Below, in pieces: positions 34,181 through 49,042 of a stretch of DNA of 64,000 nucleotides. Each line of letters opens with the position of its first letter. Within the stretch, counting starts at the first letter, position 1. The translations under genes were made by a program, and so were the position numbers. The DNA comes from an uncultured virus (IMG/VR IMGVR_UViG_3300030329_003775) (lineage: Duplodnaviria; Heunggongvirae; Uroviricota; Caudoviricetes): IMG/VR virus record IMGVR_UViG_3300030329_003775. One strand, 5' to 3'. The notes under the pieces are model-generated. The model worked only from the letters and a program-made list of their open reading frames with translations. It was not told where the DNA came from and did no database searches.

Positions 34181-34536
34181 AAAACGACGAAGGGGGACAT
34201 TGGTATACTGCATGCGGCAAGCCTCGCCATTGGCAGCCTGACGGCAAGAAGACCACATTGCGTCATGCTCGTAAGCAAAACCTTTTCCCCTCAGTCACGG
34301 GCGTGATCAAGGAGATTAACAATGAGTTCCTTAACGGCTGGCGGGTTAAGACAGCCACGCTAAGGGCCAAGGCCAACCCGGCCTTCAAGAATGAGTCCGA
34401 CGACATGTACCTCCTTAGGATCAACGTCCTGAACCGGGACGACAAGAATTCCATACTGGAGTTCGGGACGCGCATTCATGCCGCCTTGGAGAAGGTCAAC
34501 CTGCACTTCCAAAATGAAGCACGAAAAACTTCTTAA
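34177..34536 (+). CDS. N-terminal part of a PD-(D/E)xK exonuclease
   Basis: HWY...TTLRHARK..LFPSVTGVI...GTRIHAALE. Confidence 0.7.
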   Translation: MKNDEGGHWYTACGKPRHWQPDGKKTTLRHARKQNLFPSVTGVIKEINNEFLNGWRVKTATLRAKANPAFKNESDDMYLLRINVLNRDDKNSILEFGTRIHAALEKVNLHFQNEARKTS

Positions 34537-35107
34537 GAAGCTTGGTATAGACGAGGACCTTCGTCCCTTTGTGGACCACTATGTAGAGTGGTTCATGGAA
34601 AATGTTAAAGAGGTCATAACCGCTGAGCAGACGCTTGTACACCAGATGGGGTACGCGGGCACAGCGGACCTCTACGCCGTTACAAAGGACGGCAAAAGAG
34701 CCCTGATCGATTTCAAGACGCAAGGCGTTAAATCGAATGGGCCGAATTTCTACGACAGCTGGGCATACCAGCTGGCAGCCTACGTTAACTGTCTGCCTCA
34801 CCCGAGGAGCACCAAGTGCATATCGCTGGTGATCAACTCCAACACGCCTGAACCAGTTGTGGACAAGGTGTGGACTAAAGACGAAATTAGTAATGCCAAT
34901 AAAATCTTCAGGGCCGCTCTTACGAGCTGGCAGCTGAAGAAAAAATACAGACCGATTAAGGAGGCATTACATGGCGAGGAACACGTACAGGCTGAAGCGG
35001 CAAAACAACCCATTCCGGACTCAAACAATGCGAAGGCTCTTAACGAAGCGGGTAAGGCAGATGAGCCTGCTGGAGAGGCTGAAGGCGGCGTGGAGAATTC
35101 TGACTAG
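34514..35107 (+). CDS. C-terminal catalytic part of a PD-(D/E)xK exonuclease
   Basis: EQTL..GYAGTADL..LIDFKT..YQLAAY. Confidence 0.8.
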   Translation: MKHEKLLKKLGIDEDLRPFVDHYVEWFMENVKEVITAEQTLVHQMGYAGTADLYAVTKDGKRALIDFKTQGVKSNGPNFYDSWAYQLAAYVNCLPHPRSTKCISLVINSNTPEPVVDKVWTKDEISNANKIFRAALTSWQLKKKYRPIKEALHGEEHVQAEAAKQPIPDSNNAKALNEAGKADEPAGEAEGGVENSD

Positions 35108-35113
35108 GCGAAT

Positions 35114-35371
35114 ATGAAATACGAGATACGCCCCGACGATAGGATGCGGTTTTGGGTTAAGTCCCGAAACGGACGCGGAGAGTATCTCGTGGACCTCACA
35201 ACGCACGACGGCAACGGGGCGTGTACATGCCCACACTTCAGGTGCCGTCTTGAGCCCAAGGTGGTCAACAACGGCGACCAACGTCGCTGCAAGCATATCC
35301 AATGTGTGCGCGAGTATTTGGCGGACAGGGTGATCGAGGAGATGCAGGAATATGAGGCGCAAGAGGCCTAA
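35114..35371 (+). CDS. SWIM zinc-finger protein
   Basis: CTCPHF...CKHI. Confidence 0.8.
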   Translation: MKYEIRPDDRMRFWVKSRNGRGEYLVDLTTHDGNGACTCPHFRCRLEPKVVNNGDQRRCKHIQCVREYLADRVIEEMQEYEAQEA

Positions 35372-35651
35372 CCCTATATCCGCCAAGAGGCGTGAACAGA
35401 TGAAGCTCTATAAGGACAGGAGAGTGGCGTACTTGGCCGAGAATAAGCGCTGTGCGGTTTTCCCCCAGCGCAAGGCTACTGACGTACACCACATGCGTGG
35501 AAGGGCAGGGCGGCTATACCTATGCGAGGATTACTGGCTGCCTGTCAGCCGCGAAGGCCACGACAAGATTCATAAATCCCCAGAGTGGGCAAGGAGCAAG
35601 GGGTTCCTTTGTCTGAAAGGAGAATGGGGTAAGCAACCAGAAGGACACTAG
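35352..35651 (+). CDS. HNH-like nuclease
   Basis: ATDVHHMRGR...VSREGHDKIH. Confidence 0.7.
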   Translation: MRRKRPNPISAKRREQMKLYKDRRVAYLAENKRCAVFPQRKATDVHHMRGRAGRLYLCEDYWLPVSREGHDKIHKSPEWARSKGFLCLKGEWGKQPEGH

Positions 35652-35655
35652 GCAG

Positions 35656-36603
35656 ATGAAACCACCAGATTCATTCCCATTTTTCCCGGAACACTTTCTC
35701 TCCGGCACTATGTACATGAGTGCCGAGGAAGTGGGTATCTATATTAGGCTGCTTTGCTGCCAATGGACCCGTGGCGGCATCCCTAACGACCCGGAATTAA
35801 TAGCCAGAATGGCGGGTATGCAAGATGCATGCAACAAGCATGCAACAAGCATAACCAAAGACAAGTTCCTAGAGGGGTCAGACGGGGTTTTAAGGAACCC
35901 GAAATTGGAACTTATACGCAACAAAGCTTTAGAGAGATCTAAAAAAATGTCCGAAAGGGGCAAAAAAGCAGCAAATGCGCGTCATTCAGGGTCATGCAAC
36001 AAGCATGCAACAAGCATACAACAAGCATGCAACAAGCATGCAACGAGCAATGCAACAAGCATGCAACAAGCAGAAACCCCCGCTAACGGTATATATATAC
36101 TAAATAGTACTAAAGAGACTAAAGAGACTAAAGAGTCTAAAGAGCTTGATAGTCTTGAGCACCAAGTTCTCCAAGAACTGAACTCCCACCTTAAGCAGGC
36201 AAACTTACCGGCAAAGTTCAAGCTTACCTCTGAGCGCCGTGAGACCATCGCAGCAAGGATCAAGGAGGTGGATGGCGACATCAAGGGCATGTCACAGGCC
36301 TTGGGCAGGATCGTGAGGATGTGGAGAGGGACAAAGTACCAGAACTGGCTGGTCCCTGAGACGCTCTTCAAGCCAGACAAGTTCTTCAAGTACTACGAGC
36401 AGCGAGACATGCCCGTGATCAAAGAAGGCAAAACCGAGCTTCATGACCTCAAGCAGGAGCTTTCAAGGCTTGAACAAAAATACATTAACGAGAAGGGGAC
36501 ATTTGAGTCCCAGCACAGGGATGCTGACGGGGCTCTACTGCCTGAGGCGTACAAGCGCCGAAGGGAGATACTGGACCGCATAAGAGAACTGGATAACCAA
36601 TGA
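35656..36603 (+). CDS. Replication initiator (DUF1376/YdaU-like N-terminus)
   Basis: FPFFPEHFLSGT..MSAEEVGIYIRLL..QW; internal iterons; PETLF..KF..Y C-terminal motif. Confidence 0.85.
   Translation: MKPPDSFPFFPEHFLSGTMYMSAEEVGIYIRLLCCQWTRGGIPNDPELIARMAGMQDACNKHATSITKDKFLEGSDGVLRNPKLELIRNKALERSKKMSERGKKAANARHSGSCNKHATSIQQACNKHATSNATSMQQAETPANGIYILNSTKETKETKESKELDSLEHQVLQELNSHLKQANLPAKFKLTSERRETIAARIKEVDGDIKGMSQALGRIVRMWRGTKYQNWLVPETLFKPDKFFKYYEQRDMPVIKEGKTELHDLKQELSRLEQKYINEKGTFESQHRDADGALLPEAYKRRREILDRIRELDNQ
35828..36144. repeat. ori: Replication-origin iterons: CATGCAACAAG x2 plus x7, followed by ACTAAAGAG x4
   Basis: 11-bp units at 35828-35849 and 35993-36070; 9-bp units at 36109-36144 next to an AT-rich tract. 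Confidence 0.85.
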
Positions 36604-36812
36604 TGACACTGCAGGAACGAATGATAAAAAGGGAGCTGATGGAGCTGCGGCTTGAACTGATGAGACTCCTTGGAAAGCCCTCAACGAAGTCAGGCTCTTC
36701 TGCCGCGCAGTTGATTGGGGCAGATGTCTACACACGCATGAGCACACTGATCACTGACATCGAGGCAGGTAACATCAAGGATGATGACTATTCTTCCAAA
36801 AATTCCCAATAA
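36600..36812 (+). CDS. Hypothetical protein
   Basis: ATGA-coupled to the initiator gene. Confidence 0.5.
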   Translation: MMTLQERMIKRELMELRLELMRLLGKPSTKSGSSAAQLIGADVYTRMSTLITDIEAGNIKDDDYSSKNSQ

Positions 36813-36939
36813 GGGAGGCACACCCCCATGGTTCCCCAGGGCGACCTCCTTGGCCCGTGAGAGCGGGTATCTTCAGCCCGTCTGTGGGGGTGTGCATAAT
36901 TTAACCAAACCACTAAAACCACAAACACTAGGAACAAGC

Positions 36940-37302
36940 ATGATACCATATTCAGTAATAAAGACCGTCAAGGCGGAGGCACTACAAAACAGGAAGGCGA
37001 AGAGGTATAGCGCCAAGGATATCCCTGACGAGATTATCTACGACTGTGCTGAGGCCGCAGGAGTTTCCCTCGGCCAGATGATGGGCAAAGGCAGGGAACA
37101 GAGGGTCGTGGAGGCCCGATGGATGTGCTACCGGATACTTTACCCCATGGGCTTCAGTCTCTCTGTAATCGGCGCAAGGTTTAACCGAGACCATGGAACC
37201 GTCCTGCATGGGCTAAAGACTATTCAGCAGCGGCTGGACACCAACGACAGGCTAATGCGCCCCATTGTCAAAGCCATAAAAATGAAGGGGTACAAAATCT
37301 GA
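36940..37302 (+). CDS. DnaA C-terminal (domain IV)-like HTH protein
   Basis: VVEARWMC...SLSVIGARFNRDHGTVLHG. Confidence 0.85.
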   Translation: MIPYSVIKTVKAEALQNRKAKRYSAKDIPDEIIYDCAEAAGVSLGQMMGKGREQRVVEARWMCYRILYPMGFSLSVIGARFNRDHGTVLHGLKTIQQRLDTNDRLMRPIVKAIKMKGYKI

Positions 37303-37434
37303 TGCCCAAGGAGCCGGATGCGGTTGAGCTGATAGCCCTGCTAGTCATGCTGTCCCCACTGCTATTCGCGCTCTGGTTAATTTTGAAAGCACTCTACAGC
37401 AGTTAATCTCCCCCCCCACTGGTCATGCTGGAGA

Positions 37435-37728
37435 ATGTACACAGATCCAAACGGTGCGAGGAAGCTCATGTCAGAACTGATAGTGCTCTCGGTAGAGCAG
37501 TACGAGCTACTCAAGGATAAGGGCTACATAGTGCGCGGAGTACCGAAGTTTATTGAGTCTGGTAAGACCCAGCGAGCTCTCGGCCATGACGCAGCTTACA
37601 GCCTAGTCCGCTTCTTTTTCACGCCAGCACTGGACAAGGCTGTCGAGATTGGAGGAGTCCGGATTGAACCTGACCACATTCGCCAGAAGCTGGAACCAAA
37701 GCTCTGGAGGGAACTTTTACGAAAATGA
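37435..37728 (+). CDS. Hypothetical protein
   Basis: GGAG RBS; coupled to the next gene. Confidence 0.55.
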   Translation: MYTDPNGARKLMSELIVLSVEQYELLKDKGYIVRGVPKFIESGKTQRALGHDAAYSLVRFFFTPALDKAVEIGGVRIEPDHIRQKLEPKLWRELLRK

Positions 37729-37910
37729 ACTGCTGGCACTGTAACGACGAACTGATCTGGGGCGGCGATCACAGCTTTGAGGACTACGGAAGGGAGGAGG
37801 AAGGTATAGTGACCAACCTGTCCTGCCCAGAATGTGGCTCATTTGTGCTCGTCTACCTAGAAATTGGAGATGACGAGGATGAGCAGCAAAAAAGCCAAGA
37901 TGTCCAATAA
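37725..37910 (+). CDS. Small Zn-ribbon protein
   Basis: MNCWHC...CPEC. Confidence 0.65.
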   Translation: MNCWHCNDELIWGGDHSFEDYGREEEGIVTNLSCPECGSFVLVYLEIGDDEDEQQKSQDVQ

Positions 37911-38256
37911 GACAGTAGCCGCGTATATCGCCGATAAAACAGGCTACTCAGTCAAGACCGTCAGAATCATACTTCAGAGCCTCACAGAGGCGATCCCGGC
38001 CCTATTAACAACCACCACCAACAGGGTAAACATATGGTCCTTGGGAACATTCGAGCTAAGGTGGTGGACTGGAAGGAAGTTCAGCCCTGACAAGACCCTG
38101 AAGAACCACCCCTTACGGTTCAGAGGAGAGATTGCAGGGCGCTACAGGGTTAAGTTCACCCCTTCAGATCACCTGAAGAACGCTGTTCAAGCTTCCACCC
38201 AACGTCCTCTTCCTCAGAAAAGTGGATGTCACCCCAGCACTGGTCTTTCAAAATAG
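37879..38256 (+). CDS. HU/IHF-like DNA-binding protein
   Basis: IADKTGYS...VNIWSLGTFE...VKFTPSDHLKNAV. Confidence 0.75.
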   Translation: MSSKKAKMSNKTVAAYIADKTGYSVKTVRIILQSLTEAIPALLTTTTNRVNIWSLGTFELRWWTGRKFSPDKTLKNHPLRFRGEIAGRYRVKFTPSDHLKNAVQASTQRPLPQKSGCHPSTGLSK

Positions 38257-38542
38257 CCAGATAAGGTACATAGCACCCACAGCCCAAGGGAGATCCCCAA
38301 TAAGGCCTGCACCTCCGCGACACACGATCATAAATCGGACACTTCATGCAGCGCCTGATCTTCTTGCGGAACCTTGACCGCCTCTCAGCATAGCTTCTTT
38401 GGCCCACAGTGGCTCTCACAGCCACTTTCCCCATCTCAAGGAATAGATCTAGCTTCTCACGCCACCCAAGGCGTCCTAGCTCGTCCTGTACAGCTCTTTC
38501 CCACTGCCACAGTCGCGTGATCTTCAGGCCAAATAAGCTCAT
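38156..38542 (-). CDS. Cys-rich hypothetical protein; the only convincing minus-strand gene
   Basis: CMKCP...C...GCGC...C pattern common in phage proteins. Confidence 0.6.
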   Translation of the reverse strand: MSLFGLKITRLWQWERAVQDELGRLGWREKLDLFLEMGKVAVRATVGQRSYAERRSRFRKKIRRCMKCPIYDRVSRRCRPYWGSPLGCGCYVPYLAILKDQCWGDIHFSEEEDVGWKLEQRSSGDLKG

Positions 38543-38802
38543 TGTGCAGCTTTCGCAGGAATCCGCAGGAACCACCCCAGATTCTTCTTAAATTCAGCCC
38601 CAACCACCCCTAAGTCAACCCCAGATTATGAAGGGTCTTGGGAGGCTGAAAAGCCCTGAAATAGGCTTGAAAGCTGGAAAGTTGAGAAGTGGCCCATATA
38701 CATAGGCGCGGCCCCCCCGAGGCCCCCGATCCCCCGCCCCTATACCCTACGGGCATAGGGTATCGAATCTGGAAAGATCACCAACTCGACAGTGTGTAAG
38801 TT

Positions 38803-38814
38803 TGCTCTTTGACA
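38803..38814 (+). promoter_or_regulatory. boxA: boxA-like antitermination element
   Basis: TGCTCTTTGACA, 11/12 identical to rrn boxA TGCTCTTTAACA; a second CTTTGACA lies at ~38925. Confidence 0.6.
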
Positions 38815-38946
38815 TCTCAATCCCGGCCCGACACGCGCAAGTTGCGCGGGGGGGGCAACACCCACGCAAGGTAGCGCGAGGTGTTTTGAACGAGAGGTGA
38901 TACGGGGGCGAGTTTGCGGAGTGGACTTTGACAATGGGAGAGAACT

Positions 38947-39570
38947 ATGCCTGTCAAACAAAAAACCGCAACCTCGGTGAGTAACGTAACGGCTCAAACT
39001 AGCATTAACTGCGTGGAACTTGTCCGCGCCCAGATGCTGGTGGAAGCTAAAGACGCAAGCCAACGCGATGGCTTGAAGGGTCTATCTGGCAAGGGCTTTA
39101 AAGCTTGTGTAGACGAGATCCGTAGCATTCGCGGTCTGGAAAAGGGTGCAAATATCTCCGAAGAGGATATGCAGTCTTTGAAAGCGGCGGAGCGTGACCA
39201 GTCGGTCAAACCGATTCAGCATATGCTGAAGTTGGTCGAGACTGGCAAGGCACGTCTGGAAGCGTCCAAGGTCGGCATCAAGATTACGGATGAAGGCTGT
39301 GATATGCGCCGTAGCGTGTCCACCACTGAGGACATGGATCAGGAAAAACAGTGGGATGCTTTGAAGGCGAAACGTAATGCCGCCAAGAAGCGTCTCGACA
39401 AGGCCGAGGCCAAGCTAGACACGGCTTGTCTTCTGCGCGGGAATGCTGGCGTGATCGCCGTGCATGAAGGTAACAAGGCCGTCGAGTCTGCCGCCAAGGC
39501 TTATGCCAACGCCACAACCGCCCTCAAAGCGGTAGGCACGGCACTCGGCAAGGATGTGGAGAGTCTCTAG
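38947..39570 (+). CDS. First early gene; Ala/Lys-rich helical protein
   Basis: 207 aa with GGGAG RBS; followed directly by stable hairpins. Confidence 0.75.
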   Translation: MPVKQKTATSVSNVTAQTSINCVELVRAQMLVEAKDASQRDGLKGLSGKGFKACVDEIRSIRGLEKGANISEEDMQSLKAAERDQSVKPIQHMLKLVETGKARLEASKVGIKITDEGCDMRRSVSTTEDMDQEKQWDALKAKRNAAKKRLDKAEAKLDTACLLRGNAGVIAVHEGNKAVESAAKAYANATTALKAVGTALGKDVESL

Positions 39571-39574
39571 ACCT

Positions 39575-40530
39575 CCACTGGGTGGGGCGAAAGCCCCACC
39601 TCCACTAGGGATGCCATGCTGTGGCGTCTCTAGTGGGGGGCAACCCCAGACATATGGCCCGTGGAATCACGGTGCGCCCATGCAGCAAGGTGCTGTGTGT
39701 GTAATCCGCCACGCTGTTATGGCCAGTAGGATGATGCTAGGTGCGGACTCCTGCGGTGCGCTCATGCAACAAGGTATGAGGTGCAAGGTGACGCGGCAAC
39801 TCGATGGATCGGCTGTGACGGGGGAGATCTTTCTCCGGACGCAATGGGAGACCCCATTGTATCAACACACAGGGACTTGTAGGGTAGGCGTGGGCAGTAG
39901 GCGCAGGGTTTCTGCGCGGGCAAGAGGTGAAAGCCTTGTCTGCAAAAGGAATGGACGGTGACCGAGATCCACGCTGGTGGCTACAGGGTTAACGCAGCAG
40001 CGTAGTCGAGTTGTACACCGCCCGTGAGGGCGATAAATCTACACAGAGTAGCCGGTATGTACCGTTGATGGCTTGGGTGATGGCCCGAGTTAACGGGAGG
40101 TGGGGCTGTGTGAGGTGAGACGGTTCCGTGTCCTGTATGGGTAATCGGCCCAAAGACCCTCGTGGTGAATGGATCACAGGGGAGGGGTGTAGCTTCTGAT
40201 GTAGTACTGAAGAGGTAGCCCTCCATCCTCCATTAACCTGATGAGACCGGAAACCAACTGGGGGAAGTCGTACTGTGTCCAAGACTGGTGTGCCTAGGAA
40301 CGCACCGATAGGTCATGGGCGTGGGACGGCGTCAGTGAAACGTATGACTGTCGGAGCTACCCCGCTCTTTTTCCTCAAGCGGGGGCTCCAATTGGGTACA
40401 CCTGATGGGTGTGTCCAATTGGAGCGGGATGCTTGGAGTGTAGGCTGTAGTGAGGCCGATCACGGAAGGACCAGCCAGCTGGGGTGAATTTAACCCAGCT
40501 GTAGACCGCGTGGGTGTGGCGAGCCCTTTG
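39575..40530 (+). ncRNA. Candidate large structured non-coding RNA (~950 nt)
   Basis: No credible ORF; more than 15 hairpins with G-U pairs, GNRA loops and long-range helices. Confidence 0.7.
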
Positions 40531-40572
40531 CCTTAAAAGCCTAAAAAGGATACATAGAAAGTGAGGTAATTT

Positions 40573-40782
40573 ATGAACAGCTGGAAAGGCTGGGATAAGC
40601 AATACCGCGCTCGCTTTATTGCCAAGCGCAATAGCTGCACCATTGGTGAGCAGCTTGTTGACTGCGATGAGGAGCGGAAGGAGAAGGAGGAAGACCGCGA
40701 TAATAAGGCGTGGCAGCTCAAGCTGGCTCAGCAGGGTCGGTGGATTGATATTGAGTTTGATTCAGATTTCTCACTTCCATAA
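40573..40782 (+). CDS. Small hypothetical protein between two structured regions
   Basis: GAGGT RBS, 69 aa. Confidence 0.6.
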   Translation: MNSWKGWDKQYRARFIAKRNSCTIGEQLVDCDEERKEKEEDRDNKAWQLKLAQQGRWIDIEFDSDFSLP

Positions 40783-41185
40783 ACCCGTCAGGGTGTTCAT
40801 TTCGGGGTGCACTTTCTGCACCTTCTACAACCTGCACAGTTGTGCTGTGAAATTTAGCCTGCGTGGCTGTGCAGCCCTGACCAACTGTAACCCTCAACAG
40901 AAGGAGAGCTATGTAAGCTTAACTCCACATAGTAACACGTTGCGCCCTTAACTTCTCACACATTGGGATTGGTTCTAATGGGGCCGCGATCTAGGGAGGG
41001 ACACCTGTGGTGTGTCTCCATAGGAATAAATAGGAATAAACCTATCCAAAAAAGGCTGAGGTGGGTAGAGCCCTCAAAGACTCGGCAGAATACTGCCTGC
41101 CGAGCGCCTCAGCATTTACTTTCAATCTTCTCTGAGGCAGTAGATGTCTCACCCTTACATGTAACCCTAAACAAAAGGTAGCACT

Positions 41186-41506
41186 ATGAAAGACCGCAAA
41201 AGACATGGCAGGCCCTGTCCTGTGTTCACCAAGGGGATGACTAGGTCCCAAAAGGCAAAGACCAAGGATGCCTGGAAGGCACACTTCAGTGCGTGGCGGC
41301 TGGAGCATGACCCAGTGTTCATGAGCTTCATGACAGGGGCCGTAAGGAACTTGAGGAATGGGCACATAACCCATGAAGGATTCATTGAAAAACGTAATGA
41401 GCGAATGGAGGAGTCCCTTAAAAGACGCTACACCAACGAGGACTTTCGCATGGCTACACAGGCTTGGTTTGACGGACTGAAGGAGGAGCAATGTCTACGT
41501 ACATAA
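41186..41506 (+). CDS. Hypothetical early protein
   Basis: ORF with AAGG RBS. Confidence 0.6.
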   Translation: MKDRKRHGRPCPVFTKGMTRSQKAKTKDAWKAHFSAWRLEHDPVFMSFMTGAVRNLRNGHITHEGFIEKRNERMEESLKRRYTNEDFRMATQAWFDGLKEEQCLRT

Positions 41507-41721
41507 GACTCCGTGAGGTTGATGTGGCCCTTGTGTTCAGGGGAAGGGGCGTGGATGTGGAGCCTGAGGTCTACATCCCCGCAGAGGATAGCAATGGGCC
41601 TGACTCCATTCCTGCGAATGGCCCGCTGGCGTTCTGTCTGTGGGCATTGGGAAGGGAAGACCTGCAGGAGGAGTTCAGGAAGGAGATCAGTGAAACCAGT
41701 GAAGGAGAGGACTCATGTTAA
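41491..41721 (+). CDS. Hypothetical acidic early protein
   Basis: GGAGGAG RBS. Confidence 0.6.
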   Translation: MSTYIRLREVDVALVFRGRGVDVEPEVYIPAEDSNGPDSIPANGPLAFCLWALGREDLQEEFRKEISETSEGEDSC

Positions 41722-41765
41722 CGACTGAGTGGAATTGGTAACAACATTGAAACAAGGACAAAACA

Positions 41766-42134
41766 ATGCAGGCTTTAATAAACATGGGGTTCCGCCCGAT
41801 TGGTGTAGAGCGCCACAATAACACGGCACCCGCTTCGGCTACGCTTGAGTGCGACATTCAAGGCCACCCCGTAAAAATCGAATCCTTCACTGACTACTAC
41901 GGTACGCCCGCGTGCCGTCTTCAAATCGAAGGACTGGACCTCGACTGTGAGTGGTATCACGAGCCGTCATCGGCGTGGCGACGTCTCAAAAGCCAGCCCA
42001 ATCATTCAGGTGATCGGGAGAAGGTAAACGCATGGCGTCTCAGTAAGCGCAAGCTGCCACATGGTGTGGTGCAGTATAAATTTCGAAACGAACTCGGGCA
42101 TCTCGCCACCTTTCTGCTCAGCCTTAACAACTAA
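41766..42134 (+). CDS. Hypothetical early protein
   Basis: AAGGA RBS. Confidence 0.6.
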   Translation: MQALINMGFRPIGVERHNNTAPASATLECDIQGHPVKIESFTDYYGTPACRLQIEGLDLDCEWYHEPSSAWRRLKSQPNHSGDREKVNAWRLSKRKLPHGVVQYKFRNELGHLATFLLSLNN

Positions 42135-42156
42135 CAAGGATCAGAAATTGGTAACC

Positions 42157-42540
42157 ATGAAGAAACTAATAGTGCTAATGAGCTTGGCCTGCACACTGCA
42201 GGCTGCTCCGCCTGAAGCCTTCTGGAAGGCTTTGCATGAGGTGGAGGCGAGCGGGAGGGTTGGTCCTATACGTGGGGATAATGGGGCCGCGCTTGGGCCC
42301 TACCAAATCACCCGTGCATACTGGAAGGACAGCAGGGTGGCGGGTAGCTACGGCCAGTGTGCCAGCCTCGCATACTCGCGCAAGGTGGCCACTGCGTACC
42401 TGAAGAGGTATGCCCCTAGGTCATGGGCCAGCGGCAATTGCCAGGTATTGGCTAGAATCCACAATGGTGGCCCGACTGGTTACAGGAAGAAGTCCACGCT
42501 CAAGTACTGGCGTAGGTTTCAGAAAGCGATGAAGCCATGA
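42157..42540 (+). CDS. Secreted lysozyme-superfamily (i-type/destabilase-like) muramidase
   Basis: Signal peptide; HEVEAS (catalytic E), GPYQITRAYWKD, ARIHNGGP..G. Confidence 0.85.
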   Translation: MKKLIVLMSLACTLQAAPPEAFWKALHEVEASGRVGPIRGDNGAALGPYQITRAYWKDSRVAGSYGQCASLAYSRKVATAYLKRYAPRSWASGNCQVLARIHNGGPTGYRKKSTLKYWRRFQKAMKP

Positions 42541-43094
42541 AGTGTAACCAACGAGATGCAGTGGACCTCTTCCTCTCCGGCAGCTCCTTAACCTATGGCA
42601 CGGCATCCAGCTGTGCCTTCGTGCAGGACAAGGAGCTTTGGTACAAGGACAACCTGATTGCCAAGCATTGGAAGGGGAAGGGGAAGGGTCTCCCGATCAT
42701 CCTGATCGCTTTTAAGGTGAAAAAGGGGAAGAGGCTGCTGAACCTTTTGAAAAGAACCATCCGTGGCTGGAACTCCGAGTGGGGGAACGTCCCCTTTTGT
42801 CGCTGGGCACAGGTTCCTTACCCACGCTCCCCTGAGAAGAGTGTCGCAACGATCAAGGAGAGGTGGGGCGCAGCACAGGAGGCGCTTATTCGCAGGAGAG
42901 AGGCACGCACAACGAATCAATGGCTTCACTGTGCGATAGAGACCCGTAACGGGGTGAGTTTGATCTGTGCTGAGTTCGACATCCCTGAGCCGGACCTGAG
43001 CTTTGACAAGGAAACAGTACACTTCCTGACGATGGCTCGCGTTAACGGCAAGCTAAAGGGGTCGTTGGGTGATTCACTGGGAGATATATCATGA
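42537..43094 (+). CDS. Hypothetical protein
   Basis: ATGA-coupled ORF. Confidence 0.65.
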   Translation: MKCNQRDAVDLFLSGSSLTYGTASSCAFVQDKELWYKDNLIAKHWKGKGKGLPIILIAFKVKKGKRLLNLLKRTIRGWNSEWGNVPFCRWAQVPYPRSPEKSVATIKERWGAAQEALIRRREARTTNQWLHCAIETRNGVSLICAEFDIPEPDLSFDKETVHFLTMARVNGKLKGSLGDSLGDIS

Positions 43095-43933
43095 GTGCCA
43101 TACTGAAGATACAGGAAATTAATGAAAATAAATGGGCAGGCCTACCTGATAAAGGCCTGCGCAGCTTTCTCGACATGGGAGAAAACATGAGGCTGCAGGA
43201 GAAGTGTTCCTTTCAGGTGGGGGTCAAGTTCAAGGACCCGTACTTCCGTGACACAGCATCAGGGGAGATCATTGGACGCCTTTATAAACGGAGATACTGG
43301 GATGTGATTTCGCAAGAAATGTACAGACGCATGTGGCTCGATGACAAGGACGCCAAGATGCGCACCAAGTTTCTTGTGGCTTGGTGCGGCAGGAAGAAGA
43401 AGGACTGGGAGGATCAAAGTCTCTCTAACAACCCTCTCAGGGGCGTTAACTACCATGCCTACGCCTCATATCTGGGGCACTATCAGTGGGAAGAAGAAAT
43501 GGTAGCCACACTGAAGTGTGCTGCGGATCGCGAGGAAAGCCATCGCGGCACGTGCGTGATGTCCGAGTCGTTCAATAATAAGCATGAGCTGGACTGTCCG
43601 GCCTTGACTGCTTGGGAGGGAGACATAGAACTGTACAAGGCGCAATTTCAATTGGCTGCGAAGGCTGTCAAGCATACGACAATGCACCTTAGCAGGTTGA
43701 TAGACAGTGCATACAGGCTCTATGACATATGCCAAGTGACTCGAACCCATTTACCTGAGGCAGCATTCCCTAATGACCTGCTCAATAAGCTGTGTCAGTT
43801 GAGGATGGATGGCAGGTTCAACCCCTCCTCAGGCAACTACACAGACCGTGATACAAACAGACTAATCAAATTGCTGGGAGTAATATCTGATGAAACAAAA
43901 ATCAAAAGCGAGAACCAAGAAGGTCTTCTCTAA
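43091..43933 (+). CDS. Hypothetical protein
   Basis: ATGA-coupled ORF. Confidence 0.7.
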   Translation: MSAILKIQEINENKWAGLPDKGLRSFLDMGENMRLQEKCSFQVGVKFKDPYFRDTASGEIIGRLYKRRYWDVISQEMYRRMWLDDKDAKMRTKFLVAWCGRKKKDWEDQSLSNNPLRGVNYHAYASYLGHYQWEEEMVATLKCAADREESHRGTCVMSESFNNKHELDCPALTAWEGDIELYKAQFQLAAKAVKHTTMHLSRLIDSAYRLYDICQVTRTHLPEAAFPNDLLNKLCQLRMDGRFNPSSGNYTDRDTNRLIKLLGVISDETKIKSENQEGLL

Positions 43934-44537
43934 GACGAACCTACTCAGGGTGTTCGTAGGTTTGCCACCAGACAGGGTGGGGCATAGGCAGGAATGTGAC
44001 TGGCGATTGTTTTATGGGCTCCGAAGCACTAGCCCTGACTTCCCGTCATACTGGGTGGTTGGTCCGCCATGCACGGGTTACGGGAGAAGCTCGGACCATA
44101 TAATATTCTTCAAGGATGAAGAACTTTGGGTCGGCACAGAGCCTGGGGATGTGCTTGCCGCCAAGTGGATAAGCAGGAAGGTGCTATGGATCAATCCAGC
44201 AGCGGAGCACATAGGGAGCTCTCTCGATGTGGACAGGCTGCTCCATGCCAGAGGAGATGGCGGCTACACTGTCGTAAAGACTCTGTTGCCTCCGCACCAT
44301 GGCAACCATGGCCGCAATGTGGAGTGGCTCGCTTCCAAGCTGATCGACCCACGAATAAAGAACTGCCGTGCCGGATCAGCTGGTTGGTTAAAAGGTGATT
44401 GGAATGAAAGGAAGAGGGCGCTTCAGGACTATTCAGACATGTATGGAGTGGAGCCTTCATCCGATCTCAAGGATGAGATTAAGGAATTCGGCAACCTTCT
44501 TGCCCATAAACAAGTGTTAGCAACGATGGAGAAATAA
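43890..44537 (+). CDS. Hypothetical protein
   Basis: Overlapping ORF in the operon. Confidence 0.65.
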   Translation: MKQKSKARTKKVFSKTNLLRVFVGLPPDRVGHRQECDWRLFYGLRSTSPDFPSYWVVGPPCTGYGRSSDHIIFFKDEELWVGTEPGDVLAAKWISRKVLWINPAAEHIGSSLDVDRLLHARGDGGYTVVKTLLPPHHGNHGRNVEWLASKLIDPRIKNCRAGSAGWLKGDWNERKRALQDYSDMYGVEPSSDLKDEIKEFGNLLAHKQVLATMEK

Positions 44538-44540
44538 CAT

Positions 44541-45398
44541 ATGAAGATACATGAACGAGCTATGCTTACGAGGATCAACATTAAAATGTGTTCCTTCCGT
44601 AAGCTGGATAAAAAGGTCACGGACGACGTGATCCTCAAGCACTGCGCTGGGGTGGATGCTGGCAGATTCAATAAGCTGCTCATACCCAAAGAGTACATTG
44701 CTCCCGTGCAAAAGGCTGAGAGCGCCCTGCGCTCAGTGTTCTATGAAGAGACACTGCCGTATGACGACAGCGGATACCGTGTTCTGCCCACTGAAAACTT
44801 CCTGCCATTTACGCAGAAGATTAATAAGCGGACAGAGGACTTTAATGATGCTGCAGATACCCTAGCAACAGGGTATCAAGACGCCAGAGAGGAAGGCAGG
44901 CGCATGCTAAACGGCATGTTCAAGGAGTCTGACTATCCTAATACGGCTGAGGAGGTTCGTAATAAGTTCAGCGCCAAGGTGGACTTTCGAGATCTCCCCA
45001 AGGGCGGCAACTTCATGGTTGATCTAGGCGATGAGCATGTTGATTCAATTCGTGAAGAGATTGAGGCCCGCACCAACGAAGGTCTGGCTGAAGCGCAGAA
45101 GGACATCTGGCGCAGGCTTCTCGAGGTCACAAGTCACTTTGCCTCTGTCATGGGAGATGGAGGTAAGGTGTTCAGGAACTCCACAGTGGACAACGTGCTC
45201 AAGATTTGTGAGCTCGCTCCACGCATGAACCTGTCGGGTGATCCTGAGCTTGATGAACTAGCCTCACAGATCCTGTCGGACGTGAGCAACCAGAGCCCGG
45301 ACTCGCTACGTAAATCCAAATGGCATCGTGGCCAAGTGGCTGAGCGTGCAAAGGAGCACGTAAGGAAGATCGAGTCCGCAATGGAAGGAGCACTTTAA
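44541..45398 (+). CDS. DUF3150-like helical protein of the AAA/vWA module
   Basis: TLPYDDSGYRVLP, FKESDYP, FRNSTVDN, NLSGDPEL. Confidence 0.7.
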   Translation: MKIHERAMLTRINIKMCSFRKLDKKVTDDVILKHCAGVDAGRFNKLLIPKEYIAPVQKAESALRSVFYEETLPYDDSGYRVLPTENFLPFTQKINKRTEDFNDAADTLATGYQDAREEGRRMLNGMFKESDYPNTAEEVRNKFSAKVDFRDLPKGGNFMVDLGDEHVDSIREEIEARTNEGLAEAQKDIWRRLLEVTSHFASVMGDGGKVFRNSTVDNVLKICELAPRMNLSGDPELDELASQILSDVSNQSPDSLRKSKWHRGQVAERAKEHVRKIESAMEGAL

Positions 45399-45421
45399 CC
45401 CCCTGCTATAAGGTAAATAAC

Positions 45422-46438
45422 ATGAAGATAAGTGAATGCCAAAAGAACCTGAGACCCCTGCTGGAAATGGGCGACCCGTTTGTGTACGTGGGTGAGCCCG
45501 GTGTAGGTAAGACTCAGGCCATCGAGAGTGCCGCCGATATTGGGTGGCGCGTTATTACATTCCATCCGGTAGTCAGTGACCCCACTGACTTTAAGGGTAT
45601 GCCTTTCGCATACATGGATGGCGAGAATCCACGGGCAAAGTTCCTGCCATTCAGTGACCTCGAGCAACTGATTGACGCTAACGAGAACACAATAGCGTTC
45701 TTCGATGACATGGGGCAGGGGCCACTTGCCACTCAGGCTGCGATGATGCAGCTCTGGTTGTCACGCAAGATCAACGGACACCGCATCTCTGACCGGGTTG
45801 TGTTCGCGGGTGCAACCAACCGGTGCGAGGACAAGGCTGGAGTGGCTGGCATGATTGAGCCGCTCAAGTCTCGTTGCGTGCTGATCCCGTTTGAGACAGA
45901 CCTCAATGACTGGTGTGAGTGGGCATACAACCAGGAATGGATGCCAGCGGCTGTGCCTGCATTCCTGCGGTTCAAGCCTGAGCTGCTGTCCAAGTTCAAG
46001 CCTACTCGTGAGATCACGAACTCCCCGAACCCACGCAACTGGGCACGGCTTGGCAAGCTGCTCCACAACAAACTTGGTGACCATGAGCTGCTGTCTGGCT
46101 GTGTTGGAGAGGGAGCAGCCGCTGAGTTCCAAGCCTTCAAGAACATCATGGATGATCTTCCCAACCCGGACGTGATCATTAAGAGCCCTGAAACGGCTGA
46201 TGTTCCTGACAAGAAACCTGCCGTGATGTACGCCTTGATGGGAGCTCTCTCTCATCGGGCCAAGCCAAGCACGATTGACGCCATAGTGCGGTACTTGACT
46301 CGCATCCCGAAGGAGTTCTCTGTGCTCTGCATCAAGGATGCGCTCTCCAAGAACAAGAAGAATGCCAAGTTCCGCTCTCATGAGGCTATTAAGCGGTGGA
46401 GCTTCGACCATGCGGAGACGTTATGCGTGGCAGTCTAG
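45422..46438 (+). CDS. MoxR-like AAA+ ATPase
   Basis: Walker A GEPGVGKT, Walker B FFDD, ATNR..DKAGV, LKSR, PRNW. Confidence 0.92.
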   Translation: MKISECQKNLRPLLEMGDPFVYVGEPGVGKTQAIESAADIGWRVITFHPVVSDPTDFKGMPFAYMDGENPRAKFLPFSDLEQLIDANENTIAFFDDMGQGPLATQAAMMQLWLSRKINGHRISDRVVFAGATNRCEDKAGVAGMIEPLKSRCVLIPFETDLNDWCEWAYNQEWMPAAVPAFLRFKPELLSKFKPTREITNSPNPRNWARLGKLLHNKLGDHELLSGCVGEGAAAEFQAFKNIMDDLPNPDVIIKSPETADVPDKKPAVMYALMGALSHRAKPSTIDAIVRYLTRIPKEFSVLCIKDALSKNKKNAKFRSHEAIKRWSFDHAETLCVAV

Positions 46439-46469
46439 GCGATAAACTACTCCATCGACTGTCAGAGTA

Positions 46470-46893
46470 TATGATGGAGGCATACGATAAGCAGTGTTCC
46501 TTCGCATACCGCCATCACGCAAGAGACTGGCTGGGTGTGAAGTCAGGGCCTGATGACAGTGCCAAGTGGCGGGAGATGAAAGAGCACATCAGCTACTACC
46601 CAACTCACCGTCACATGGTGTGGAATGATGAGATCCTGATCAGGACTAGGAGGGGGAAGGAGATTTCCCTTCCCCTTCCGCCTGAGGACCACCTGAACCA
46701 CAATGTCCTGTTTGGATACGCGATCAACGAACTAAATAAAGGTGAGCTGTATAGCTACCCGTTCAACGAGGACGAGTGGGTTCATTATAAACTATATGGA
46801 GGCCGCTGGAAGGAGGCCAGCAGGACACTTTATGATAAGTCCAACGCGACTTCTATTAATACCGGAGTTGTCCTGAACCTAATGGAATCATGA
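46470..46893 (+). CDS. Hypothetical protein between the AAA and vWA genes
   Basis: ORF ATGA-coupled to the vWA gene; start uncertain. Confidence 0.55.
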
Positions 46894-48044
46894 AGATCAT
46901 AGAACAAGCAATGGCTAAGCTGATACTTGATCAGCCGTTCTTCGCAACCATCCTTCTCTCTATGGAGAGAGTGGAGGATGGATCAATCCCGACCATGGCT
47001 ACTAACGGAGAGAAGTTGTATTACAACCCGGACTTCGCCAAGTCCCTTCACCCAGCTGAGCTTGTGGGAGTGCTGGCGCATGAGGCCATGCACCCTGCAT
47101 GCCTTCACCACCTAAGGAAGGGGGAACGAGACCACTTCAAGTTCAACGTAGCATGTGATTACGCTATCAATCCGCTGCTGAAGGAGGCAGGCATAACCCT
47201 GCCCGGTGATGCACTGATTAGTTCAAGCTATGAGGGGCTTCACGCAGAGGCCATCTACTCCAAGCTCCCTGAGACCATTACCGCAAGCCCCGAAGATGGT
47301 GATGGTGATGGTGATGGCGGCGACACCAAGATCCATCCAGGAATGTGGGGCGAGGTCATTGAGGCCAAGAACCCTGACGGCACACGAATGACTGACGCTG
47401 ACATTCGCGAGGCTGAGGGCCGATGGAAGGTCAAGGTCAGGCAAGCAGCCACAGCCGCCAAGAAAGCCGGGAAACTTCCATCAGGTATGGAGAGATTCGT
47501 TGAGGAGCTGATGGAGCCTAAGCTGAACTGGAGAACAATACTGTCAAGGTTCGTTGGTGATCTCGCAAGGACTGACTACTCCTTTAGGTTCCCCAATACT
47601 CGTTACTCCCACACAGGATTCACATTGCCCTCACTCAAGTCAGAGACCATCGGCAAGGTTATATTTGGGATGGATACATCAGGGTCAATGGGAGGGAGCG
47701 AGATGAGGGACGTCCTTGGTGAGGTGTGCGGGGCCCTTCGTGAGTACGAAAAGGACGGGGCAGACCCTGAGGTCACAGTCCTGTGGTGCGACACCGAGGT
47801 GCATGAGCAGACCCTGTCTGACTCGAGTGAGTTCCGGCCAAAGGGAGGCGGAGGAACTGACTTCGCCCCAGTGTTTGAACACATCAAGGAGAAGGGCTAC
47901 GACCCCAAGGCCGTGGTCTACATGACGGACGGGTACTGTCATTCCTTTGGGGATGACCCCGGATGTCCAGTGCTATGGGCACTTACCAATAAGTGTGATT
48001 CGTTTAGTCCTCCTTTTGGTGAGACAATGATCATAAATCAATGA
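46890..48044 (+). CDS. Metallopeptidase-like plus vWA domain protein (DUF2201-like)
   Basis: HEAMH zinc motif, NVACDYAIN, MIDAS DTSGS, GGGGTDF, MTDG. Confidence 0.92.
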   Translation: MKIIEQAMAKLILDQPFFATILLSMERVEDGSIPTMATNGEKLYYNPDFAKSLHPAELVGVLAHEAMHPACLHHLRKGERDHFKFNVACDYAINPLLKEAGITLPGDALISSSYEGLHAEAIYSKLPETITASPEDGDGDGDGGDTKIHPGMWGEVIEAKNPDGTRMTDADIREAEGRWKVKVRQAATAAKKAGKLPSGMERFVEELMEPKLNWRTILSRFVGDLARTDYSFRFPNTRYSHTGFTLPSLKSETIGKVIFGMDTSGSMGGSEMRDVLGEVCGALREYEKDGADPEVTVLWCDTEVHEQTLSDSSEFRPKGGGGTDFAPVFEHIKEKGYDPKAVVYMTDGYCHSFGDDPGCPVLWALTNKCDSFSPPFGETMIINQ

Positions 48045-48887: not shown

Positions 48888-49042
48888 TGAAAAACATCCC
48901 AACCTTTGACATGATCACATACGGGGAGATCGCCTTATTGGCCATGGACCACATGCCAAATAGGATAATGGATCACCTTGATCTAAGTGATGAGGAGTTC
49001 GAGCGGCTGCAGATGCAGCTGGGCGAAGAGATGGAGAAATAA
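48887..49042 (+). CDS. Small acidic protein (51 aa); not in the ORF track
   Basis: MKNIPTFDMITYGEIALLAMDHMPNRIMDHLDLSDEEFERLQMQLGEEMEK; TAATG-coupled at both ends. Confidence 0.65.
   Translation: MKNIPTFDMITYGEIALLAMDHMPNRIMDHLDLSDEEFERLQMQLGEEMEK

What the first reader, a model, noticed from the sequence alone, without database searches (positions are those of the whole stretch)
39575..40530. Candidate ~1-kb ornate non-coding RNA at the start of the early region
Seen: in an otherwise gap-free genome, ~950 nt have no RBS-supported ORF but are packed with helices. Examples: GGUGGGGC-GAAA-GCCCCACC (39581-39600); a 15-bp stem with 2 G-U pairs (39602-39636); GNRA-capped hairpins (GCAA ~39640, GAAA ~39929, GUGA ~40024); an 18-bp stem with 2 G-U pairs (40385-40425); a long-range helix GCAACUCGA/UCGAGUUGU (39796-39804 with 40006-40014) enclosing multi-branch junctions; and several AGUA (loop-E-like) motifs. 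G-U tolerance indicates structure on the plus-strand RNA rather than DNA cruciforms. Knowledge: phages encode large ncRNAs such as GOLLD and ROOL. Inference: a large RNA, possibly of a new class and possibly partnered with the upstream 207-aa basic helical protein. I cannot assign it to a known family.
Basis: partly seen in the sequence, partly recalled or inferred. Interest (0 to 1): 0.88.

Follow-up and report, generated by a model that had tools for sequence, protein, structure and literature searches.

The report
Abundant, heavily folded untranslated phage RNA stretch
A marine phage keeps about 1 kb of gene-free, very strongly folding sequence behind a small, highly expressed gene; it is abundant in an ocean RNA sample and a distant relative has the same layout, but it matches no known RNA family and no shared structure could be shown.

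Summary
Window 39571-40572 has no coding signal in any of six frames. It folds far better than shuffles on the + strand (z -5.47). It matches none of 4227 Rfam families.

New evidence:
- In one metatranscriptome run, the contig over 39289-40676 has word depth 1306. Flanking contigs have 109-189, and pieces inside the upstream 207-aa gene have about 2400-2700.
- The 207-aa gene's own RNA is just as unusually folded (z -7.48).
- A related phage contig, L179 (ATPase 58% identical), has the same order: promoter-like motif, 215-aa Ala/Lys-rich gene, terminator, 858-nt ORF-free stretch (z -7.72), small WxGW gene.

Against a new "ornate" RNA class:
- The two ORF-free stretches share no detectable sequence.
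- A covariance model of the 217-nt central domain finds nothing in relatives.
- The GNRA-loop excess is seen only in the window, and AGUA motifs are at chance level.
- No covariation test was possible.

Two copies of the phage's origin-type 11-nt repeat lie inside the region.

Best reading: the structured, untranslated downstream part of a very abundant transcription unit, acting at RNA level. A discrete trans-acting large RNA remains possible.

The parts
38808..38825 (+). Promoter-like or regulatory motif TTTGACAT-N4-ATCCCG, about 130 nt upstream of the 207-aa gene
   Evidence: Of 189 loci held, the motif is found only in 6 copies of this phage and at the same relative place in L179 (52-65) (alignment). 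No sigma-70 -10 box follows it.
38947..39570 (+). 207-aa gene: Ala/Lys-rich, pI 9.1, helical. It is real coding sequence whose mRNA is unusually structured.
   Evidence: Codon log-odds 0.133. A homologue, P0003, is 44% identical over its full length, E 1.3e-37. RNA z -7.48. The 18 control 624-nt coding segments give z +0.79 to -2.15. pI. No Pfam or PHROG family at threshold.
39571..40572 (+). ORF-free, strongly folding stretch (the finding)
   Evidence: RNA contig 39289-40676 has depth 1306 against 109-189 in the flanks. No Rfam match.
39580..39647 (+). Three stable hairpins directly behind the stop codon: 9 bp with GAAA loop, 16 bp, and 4 bp with GCAA. There is no U-tract.
   Evidence: In L179 the matching place holds a 13-bp hairpin followed by U7, a canonical intrinsic terminator. 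DNA run X7 carries T39629C, which turns a G-U pair of the 16-bp stem into G-C.
39670..39691 (+). First copy of a 22-nt direct repeat, CGGTGCGCYCATGCARCAAGGT. Its core (39679-39689) matches the 11-nt origin-type repeat.
   Evidence: 2 matches in 64 kb, 0 expected..
39754..39775 (+). Second copy of the 22-nt repeat, 84 nt after the first. Its core (39763-39773) matches CATGCAACAAG exactly.
   Evidence: The two copies sit in different predicted hairpin contexts.
39797..40013 (+). 217-nt multi-branch domain closed by a 9-bp long-range helix
   Evidence: Model R1 built from it finds no counterpart in 7 related loci; best E 0.13, on trivial hairpins.
40385..40425 (+). 19-bp hairpin (GAU loop), 148 nt before the next gene
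   Evidence: P 0.98. L179 has a 20-bp stem (1615-1634/1691-1710) just before its small gene. An RNase III site is inferred, not shown.
40573..40782 (+). 69-aa gene with N-terminal WxGW motif, preceded by a GAGG ribosome-binding site
   Evidence: Codon log-odds 0.198. Weak BLASTP match (E 0.005) to the 55-aa ORF at the same place in L179.
40662..40676 (.). Place where the high-depth RNA contig ends and the low-depth one begins
   Evidence: record 10 ends at 40676 and record 11 starts at 40662. This is one run of one study, so only a weak hint of an RNA end.
35818..36072 (+). Two tandem arrays of the 11-nt unit CATGCAACAAG (3.2 and 7.2 copies) inside the replication-initiator gene; a likely origin with iterons. 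Related to the two sites in the region.
   Evidence: Gene family (replication initiation O-like, DUF1376).

Best explanation
The 1-kb stretch is the untranslated, heavily base-paired downstream part of a very abundant transcription unit. The unit starts near the conserved TTTGACAT..ATCCCG element and runs through the 207-aa gene.

Most transcripts stop or are trimmed at the hairpin cluster right behind the stop codon. The rest run on through about 1 kb of stable helices and end near 40.67 kb, before the next genes reach comparable levels.

The stretch acts at RNA level and in cis. It buffers read-through between the first gene and the following genes. It also gives the transcript nuclease-resistant ends, with its 16-20-bp stems as likely processing sites.

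Shown: non-coding status, excess folding, raised RNA depth, and the same layout in one relative. Inferred: the start and end points, the strand, and attenuation, stabilisation and processing.
For: 1. RNA run X4. One contig (39289-40676) joins the 3' part of the gene to the whole ORF-free stretch at mean depth 1306. Pieces inside the gene have 2417-2710. The contigs on either side have 189 (35871-39192) and 109 (40662 onward). By hand arithmetic, if the gene part of that contig sits at about 3400 (the total at 39288), the ORF-free part averages roughly 570-770. That is about 5-7 times the downstream genes and about a fifth of the gene.
2. The gene's RNA and the tail are both folding outliers: z -7.48 and -5.47. 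The 18 control segments of the same genome give +0.79 to -2.15. The ORF-free stretch upstream of the gene is not folded (z -0.88).
3. L179 keeps the order motif, 215-aa gene, canonical terminator, 858-nt ORF-free stretch, WxGW gene. There z is -6.11 for the gene and -7.72 for the tail.
4. Sequence is not conserved between the two tails. That fits a role depending on generic folding rather than a precise core.
5. Strand bias: z is more negative on the + strand in both phages (and 71/72). 57 of 329 MFE pairs are G-U.
Against: - Contig depths are means per contig, from one RNA run of one study. They show neither strand nor ends, and the tool warns they are a poor measure of expression.
- A single hairpin is enough to stabilise or terminate a transcript. 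Keeping 0.86-1.0 kb in two compact genomes suggests a function that needs length.
- The window's hairpin cluster has no U-tract, and no sigma-70 promoter was found upstream.
- The GNRA excess and long-range helices with P 0.73-0.88 would fit a globular RNA.
- In L179, 1 of 11 control segments is as structured (z -6.11), so the folding signal there is less exclusive.
- The two origin-type repeats point to a DNA-level role that this reading does not explain.
Confidence: 0.4

Rival explanations
1. A discrete, trans-acting large non-coding RNA of an undescribed class, about 1 kb, or about 1.7 kb if the gene is part of it. It accumulates during infection, possibly as a particle with the basic 207-aa protein encoded beside it. 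It would be analogous to GOLLD or ROOL, or to the ~800-nt most abundant transcript of vibriophage ICP1.
For: - Size is retained in two distant relatives (1002 and 858 nt), with extreme folding.
- GNRA-capped hairpins number 5 against 1.02 expected, on the + strand only.
- Long-range closing helices are predicted.
- RNA depth is well above neighbouring genes.
- The region co-occurs with the protein gene in 2 of 2 loci where the place is visible.
- Precedent: ICP1's most abundant transcript comes from a ~1-kb ORF-less gap (PMC7567579, passages read).
Against: - No Rfam match.
- No conserved sequence block between the two stretches: local score 28 against shuffles 22.3 +/- 2.8, maximum 30.
- The central-domain model finds nothing in relatives.
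- There is no GNRA excess in L179: 1 against 0.50 expected.
- Depth is lower than over the upstream gene.
- A canonical terminator lies between gene and stretch in L179, with no promoter seen behind it.
- No covariation data exist.
Confidence: 0.25
2. A DNA-level element tied to replication or genome entry. Options: extra binding sites for the phage's replication initiator (copy control or an auxiliary origin), a structured single-strand initiation zone, or a T5-like injection-stop region. The RNA would then be a by-product of the strong neighbouring promoter.
For: - The only 2 copies of the 11-nt unit CATGCAACAAG (1 mismatch allowed) outside the 9 copies in the initiator gene lie in this stretch, inside a 22-nt repeat spaced 84 bp apart.
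- The replication genes lie just upstream.
- The DNA-parameter fold gives z -5.58, and the - strand is also structured (z -3.58).
- T5's injection-stop region is a 1.2-1.7-kb untranslated stretch full of palindromes (bioRxiv 10.1101/866236, abstract and passages read).
Against: - Only two repeat copies are present, and they explain about 44 of 1002 nt.
- No DnaA boxes: 0 of the window's 4 matches fall in the stretch.
- Almost no other direct repeats.
- T5's region is highly conserved among relatives, while this one is not.
- The + strand bias, the G-U pairs and the raised RNA depth are not expected of a purely DNA-level site.
- For L179, neither an initiator gene nor arrays of its own 11-nt repeat could be found in the bin.
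Confidence: 0.15
3. A row of several separate, stem-closed stable small RNAs that are exchanged like cassettes between related phages, rather than one large RNA.
For: - The fold breaks into stem-closed modules, for example 39797-40013 and 40039-40443.
- The stretches differ completely in sequence between relatives at a fixed position.
- An earlier unchecked note of this scan describes such an array in another phage (e1-6060531).
Against: - No tRNA-like genes and no Rfam match.
- No internal promoters or terminators were found.
- One RNA contig spans the whole stretch, though contigs cannot show ends.
Confidence: 0.1
4. Decayed or junk sequence without a function of its own, whose folding excess is a by-product of G-rich composition.
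For: No conservation of sequence. Function is unknown. Some coding segments also reach strong z-scores: 34501-36200 in the window and 12500-13147 in L179.
Against: - Dinucleotide-preserving shuffles control for composition.
- The same size, place and folding excess recur in a relative with only 58% identity in a conserved ATPase.
- Phage genomes rarely keep 1.5% of their length idle (general knowledge).
Confidence: 0.1

Closest known systems
The ~800-nt abundant non-coding transcript of vibriophage ICP1 (ORF-less ~1-kb gap between gp139 and gp140; PMC7567579, passages read)
   Same: A roughly 1-kb ORF-free gap in a lytic-type phage genome. It lies beside a lysis-related module, is transcribed at high level, has no tRNA neighbours, belongs to no family, and has unknown function.
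   Different: No sequence similarity: blastn of the stretch against 50,697 phage records found nothing. In ICP1 it is the single most abundant transcript. Here the neighbouring gene has higher depth, and the expression evidence is contig depth from one environmental run.
GOLLD and ROOL large ornate phage and prophage RNAs (PMC12286853, passages read)
   Same: Phage-encoded, 600-800+ nt, many helices, abundant, function unknown.
   Different: No match to their Rfam models. No tRNA genes anywhere in the 64-kb window. No conserved core shared with the positional counterpart. Their structures rest on covariation, which is lacking here.
Early-transcript architecture of T7 and lambda: hairpin processing sites and terminators behind the first early gene (recalled textbook knowledge, not read here)
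   Same: A first, highly expressed small gene is followed by stable hairpins or a terminator (canonical in L179). Long stems of 16-20 bp are suited to RNase III. Depth steps down toward later genes.
   Different: Those systems use tens to about 100 nt per site, not 0.9-1.0 kb of continuous structure. No processing or antitermination has been shown here.
T5 injection-stop (iss) untranslated region (bioRxiv 10.1101/866236, abstract and passages read)
   Same: A large untranslated stretch rich in inverted repeats, close to the first-expressed genes.
   Different: T5's region has many direct repeats and 8 DnaA boxes and is highly conserved among relatives. This stretch has one 22-nt repeat pair, no DnaA box and no conservation.

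Membership tests
GOLLD / ROOL / OLE (Rfam large RNAs) | Match to the family's covariance model | tested here: not met
   0 matches at gathering score over the whole window. With E up to 10 over 38500-41300, there are only two chance-level hits to animal lncRNA pieces, E 0.73 and 5.4. That these families are in Rfam is stated in PMC12286853.
GOLLD / ROOL / OLE (Rfam large RNAs) | Frequent position next to tRNA genes | tested here: not met
   ARAGORN finds 0 tRNA genes in 64 kb.
GOLLD / ROOL / OLE (Rfam large RNAs) | Conserved multi-domain secondary structure supported by covariation | tested here: inconclusive
   No alignable homologue was found. Only identical copies turned up in the viral and metagenome collections. 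The positional counterpart in L179 is not alignable. Model R1 of the central domain has best E 0.13.
Group I / group II introns | Match to the intron models, and insertion inside a gene whose halves join in frame | tested here: not met
   No Rfam match. The upstream ORF ends with its own stop at 39568-39570. The downstream ORF has its own ribosome-binding site and ATG at 40573. Both are kept as separate genes in L179.
ICP1-type abundant ORF-less phage transcript | ORF-free gap of about 1 kb that is transcribed at high level | tested here: inconclusive
   The gap is confirmed. The RNA-run contig depth of 1306 against 109-189 in the flanks rests on one run, per-contig means and no strand information.
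ICP1-type abundant ORF-less phage transcript | Sequence relationship to the ICP1 RNA | tested here: not met
   No blastn match in the phage record collection.
T5-like injection-stop region | Clustered DnaA boxes, many direct repeats and palindromes, strong conservation among relatives | tested here: not met
   0 DnaA boxes in the stretch. There is one 22-nt repeat pair only. No conservation with L179.
Iteron-bearing replication control locus (such as plasmid or phage inc regions; recalled) | Copies of the origin's iteron outside the origin | tested here: met
   2 copies (0 and 1 mismatch) at 39763 and 39679. The other 9 of the 11 matches in 64 kb form the arrays in the initiator gene. 1.6 matches are expected by chance in the whole window.
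Iteron-bearing replication control locus (such as plasmid or phage inc regions; recalled) | Binding by the initiator protein and an effect on replication | not testable with these tools
   Needs EMSA or ChIP and genetics.
Intrinsic terminator / RNase III-processed early leader | GC-rich hairpin with U-tract behind the gene; long stems cleaved by RNase III | tested here: inconclusive
   L179 has a 13-bp hairpin plus U7. The window has hairpins without a U-tract, and the consensus scan finds no terminator there. Cleavage cannot be tested.

The most novel reading that the evidence does not exclude
The 207-aa gene and its 1-kb tail together form a new kind of large (about 1.7 kb), fast-evolving, extremely folded phage RNA. 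It is among the most abundant phage transcripts in the sea. It works in trans, for example as a decoy or sponge for host RNA-binding or RNA-sensing proteins, or as a particle with its own basic protein. Selection keeps its folding and size but not its sequence.
Probability: 0.2. Interest if true: 0.75.

Novelty: new variant of a known kind. Interest (0 to 1): 0.5.

Why it matters
Long, abundant, ORF-free phage transcripts keep turning up (ICP1, phage K, GOLLD, ROOL), and none has a known function. This case adds an uncultured marine phage lineage with three features. The untranslated kilobase is fused to a small, equally structured, highly expressed gene. The layout survives deep divergence while the sequence does not. 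And the stretch carries two copies of the phage's origin repeat. If the RNA proves to be a defined, stable product, it would be a tractable example of structure-without-sequence conservation in a viral RNA, and a possible link between early transcription and replication control. If it is only a read-through buffer, it still shows how much genome a compact phage spends on RNA-level insulation.

Tried and rejected
**Homologue hunting**
- blastn (distant mode) against phage records found no match.
- Exact-pattern scans of viral contigs with a 31-nt stretch found only this phage's own contig. With the 20-nt repeat they found the same contig plus one single-copy, chance-level hit in a 433-kb contig.
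- Five protein-anchored scans of viral contigs were run, plus alignment A1 on viral, metagenome and genome collections.
- blastn and nhmmer of 38257-41185 against the non-self members of the 166 loci then held found nothing significant; the only strong hit was L166, a copy of this phage.
- Only L179 shows the locus. L006 and L012 stop short of it.

**The 207-aa protein**
- It has one real homologue, P0003.

**Structure-aware alignment**
- mafft-qinsi failed because a component is missing.
- Model R1 covers only 217 of 1002 nt. The other two model slots were not used, so the 5' hairpin cluster and the 3' domain were not tested as models.

**Other readings considered and dropped**
- A hammerhead-like CUGAUGAG...GAAAC string at 40240-40257 was seen by eye. 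It has no room for stem II and no Rfam hit, so it was dropped.
- Relatives of the L106/L108/L110 type carry a nearly invariant non-coding block behind a sigma-70-like promoter. It is not strongly folded (z -1.42) and not similar to this stretch.
- Rfam finds nothing in 8 related loci.
- The CTTTGACAT copy at 48904 lies inside a small ORF and was dropped as a second promoter.
- Runs X8 and X10 gave too little cover of the stretch to add variants.
- The ESM Atlas look-up of the 207-aa protein gave no hit above the chance range (best 0.79).
- A possible terminal repeat (X7 contig 38462-38938, depth 9.25 against 4.7-6.5) rests on one low-depth run.

Full report
**Context.** The 64-kb window is a phage genome with all long ORFs on the + strand.
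- Tail and structural genes and a 3984-aa ORF occupy 0-25 kb.
- A replication module lies at 31.8-38.3 kb: DnaB, SSB, an O-like initiator, a DnaA_C-type HTH protein and an HU-like protein.
- A lysozyme and a MoxR-ATPase/VWA module lie at 42-48 kb.
- A tyrosine recombinase and the terminase lie at 54-58 kb.
- The ATPase's relatives in cultured phages are below 33% identical.
- Between 38257 and 41185 only two small genes are coding: 38947-39570 (207 aa) and 40573-40782 (69 aa). The rest (690, 1002 and 403 nt) scores as non-coding in all six frames.

**Checking the observation.**
- The 970-nt + strand folds at -435.6 kcal/mol against -385.7 +/- 9.1 for 20 dinucleotide shuffles, z -5.47. The - strand gives z -3.58.
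- 57 of 329 predicted pairs are G-U.
- GNRA-capped hairpins are enriched on the + strand only: 5 against 1.02 expected, with 2 of 1000 shuffles reaching 5.
- The AGUA motifs are at chance level: 4 against 3.48.
- DNA energy parameters give z -5.58, so energy alone does not prove RNA.
- In a 200-nt sliding scan of 30-50 kb, the lowest 16-window mean (-2.60) is at 38801-40500. A second stretch, 34501-36200, reaches -2.51. That stretch holds tandem repeats.

**Known families.** The whole window has no Rfam match at gathering thresholds. A permissive scan of 38500-41300 gives only two chance-level hits, E 0.73 and 5.4. There are no tRNA genes. The spurious ORFs inside the stretch have no Pfam match. 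No sigma-70-type promoter on the + strand and no canonical terminator were found in 37800-41600, apart from a weak 5-bp candidate at 40353.

**RNA evidence.** Ten public runs hold the stretch or part of it, one of them a metatranscriptome, X4. Laid on 35000-47000, the X4 contigs have these mean word depths (8 of the 21 X4 records laid are listed):

| Span | Depth |
|---|---|
| 35000-35766 | 30.6 |
| 35871-39192 | 189.1 |
| 39163-39236 | 2710 |
| 39259-39318 | 2417 |
| 39289-40676 | 1306 |
| 40662-47000 | 109.4 |

At 39288 a second allele adds 995, for a total of 3412. DNA carried over into the library cannot give such steps, so an RNA overlapping the stretch is abundant.

Because depths are per-contig means, the distribution inside the 1388-nt contig is unknown. 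By my arithmetic, if the 282-360 nt next to the gene sit at about 3400, the remainder averages about 570-770. That is above the neighbours but below the gene. Strand and ends cannot be read from contigs, and this is one run of one study.

DNA run X7 carries T39629C, which converts a G-U pair of the 16-bp stem to G-C, and a 1-nt change in the adjacent G-run. The other copies differ from the window at only one place in the stretch, 40517.

**The upstream gene belongs to the picture.**
- The 207-aa ORF is real: its codon score is 0.133, within the 0.08-0.24 range of training genes.
- A full-length homologue, P0003, is 44% identical, E 1.3e-37.
- Word-based searches found only the protein itself.
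- Its RNA is as much an outlier as the stretch: z -7.48, or -5.03 with my 12 shuffles. The 18 control 624-nt segments range from +0.79 to -2.15.
- The ORF-free 690 nt upstream are not structured, z -0.88.

**Relatives.** Only identical copies of the stretch exist in the collections searched. Of the nearest relatives by ATPase, L006 (64%) and L012 (56%) end before the locus. The 427 non-coding nt at the edge of L012 are also structured, z -4.09.

A contig binned into a proteobacterial MAG, L179 (ATPase 58%), does show the locus. In order it has:
- the motif TTTGACAT..ATCCCG, found nowhere else among the 189 loci except in copies of the window phage;
- a 215-aa Ala/Lys-rich gene, with a weak BLASTP match to the 207-aa protein (E 3e-4; 22% identity in alignment A6; codon score 0.213);
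- a 13-bp hairpin with U7;
- an 858-nt stretch in which every ORF scores non-coding, -0.14 to -0.41;
- a 55-aa gene sharing the N-terminal WxGW motif with the window's 69-aa gene (E 0.005);
- homologues of the window's downstream genes.

The L179 stretch has z -7.72 on the + strand and -4.00 on the - strand, and its gene has z -6.11. As a caution, 1 of 11 control segments of L179 also reaches -6.11, and the controls there run from +0.56 to -6.11.

**No shared sequence or domain.**
- Smith-Waterman between the two stretches scores 28, against 22.3 +/- 2.8 (maximum 30) for 100 shuffles.
- The few shared 9-10-mers are within expectation.
- A covariance model of the window's 217-nt central domain, run with filters off over 7 related loci (65 kb), gives nothing better than E 0.13, on simple hairpins.
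- L179 has no GNRA excess: 1 against 0.50.
- No covariation test could be made.

So the layout, size and folding excess are conserved, but not a definable RNA architecture.

**An unexpected DNA-level link.** The stretch contains a 22-nt direct repeat, at 39670 and 39754, spaced 84 nt apart, with 0 expected by chance. Its core is the 11-nt unit CATGCAACAAG. That unit occurs 11 times in the window with at most 1 mismatch, against 1.6 expected. Nine copies form two tandem arrays inside the replication-initiator gene, and the other two are these.

This arrangement resembles origins with iterons inside the initiator gene; the lambda O gene is the textbook case, recalled. The two copies sit in different predicted RNA hairpins, which argues that the sequence itself is what is recognised.

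L179 likewise has an 11-nt repeat, CGCCGTTGTAC, twice in its stretch. Its replication genes are not in the bin, so the parallel could not be tested. There are no DnaA boxes in the stretch.

**Weighing.**
- Best supported (0.40): one abundant, highly structured transcription unit, a small gene plus a long untranslated tail, acting in cis at RNA level through attenuation of read-through, protection and processing.
- A DNA-level replication or entry element gains from the origin-type repeats but explains little of the kilobase or the RNA data (0.15).
- An array of separate small RNAs (0.10).
- No function (0.10).

**Comparison with known systems.**
- The nearest described analogue by behaviour is ICP1's ~800-nt most abundant transcript, from an ORF-less ~1-kb gap (PMC7567579, passages).
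- Phage K long non-coding RNAs have also been likened to GOLLD and ROOL (PMC9241854, passages).
- GOLLD and ROOL are defined by covariation-supported structures and often lie near tRNAs (PMC12286853, passages). Both features were tested here and not met.
- T5's untranslated injection-stop region (bioRxiv 10.1101/866236) differs in its repeats, DnaA boxes and conservation.
- Earlier unchecked notes of this scan list several ORF-free structured stretches in early phage regions of other genomes. None concerns this genome.

**Verdict.** The feature is real, the family is unassigned, and the in-situ RNA evidence is good but coarse. A conserved-architecture claim is not supported. Interest is moderate.

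Noticed in passing
window 35818-35852, 35993-36072, 36099-36144: There are tandem arrays of an 11-nt unit (CATGCAACAAG, 3.2 and 7.2 copies) and a 9-nt unit (5 copies) inside the O-like replication-initiator gene. This is a likely origin of replication lying within the initiator gene. RNA run X4 lacks one 11-nt unit at 35993, and DNA run X7 has three 1-nt deletions nearby. The array length therefore varies in the population, although the period is not a multiple of three.
   Followed up: partly
window 12865-24819: A 3984-aa ORF next to the tail genes has no Pfam, PHROG or PDB sequence match. Its nature is unknown; a giant virion or ejection protein is one possibility.
   Followed up: partly
window 11000-12000: There is a GC-rich (0.647), C-skewed patch with several tandem repeats (periods 6-66) inside the 1104-aa ORF.
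   Followed up: no
window 38257-38946: A 690-nt ORF-free, C-rich stretch is the only 1-kb bin nearby with negative GC skew. It is not structured (z -0.88). It holds three GNRA-type hairpins of the form CUG(A/G)AAAG (3 against 0.38 expected) and the conserved TTTGACAT..ATCCCG motif. DNA run X7 has a separate contig at 38462-38938 with depth 9.25 against 4.7-6.5 beside it, which might hint at a terminal repeat.
   Followed up: partly
window 40886-40904 and 41160-41178: A 19-nt repeat, TGTAACCCTMAACARAAGG, occurs twice in the 403-nt ORF-free stretch. The second copy lies just before the 106-aa gene's start. The first is followed by AGAGCT and then an ATG immediately followed by a stop codon.
   Followed up: no
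L108 5470-5800 (also L106, L110): More distant relatives carry a sigma-70-like promoter (TTGACA, then 18 nt, then TATGTA) followed by about 300 nt of almost invariant non-coding sequence. The neighbouring genes differ by 12-20%. The block is not strongly folded as a whole (z -1.42) and has no Rfam match.
   Followed up: partly
L012 1-427: The non-coding edge of the 56%-relative's contig, upstream of a conserved 94-aa gene, is strongly structured (z -4.09, with 0 of 100 shuffles as good). It may be the end of an analogous stretch.
   Followed up: partly
window 54315-55373: A tyrosine recombinase or integrase gene lies in a genome otherwise laid out like a lytic podovirus-type phage. It could mean a temperate lifestyle or dimer resolution.
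   Followed up: no
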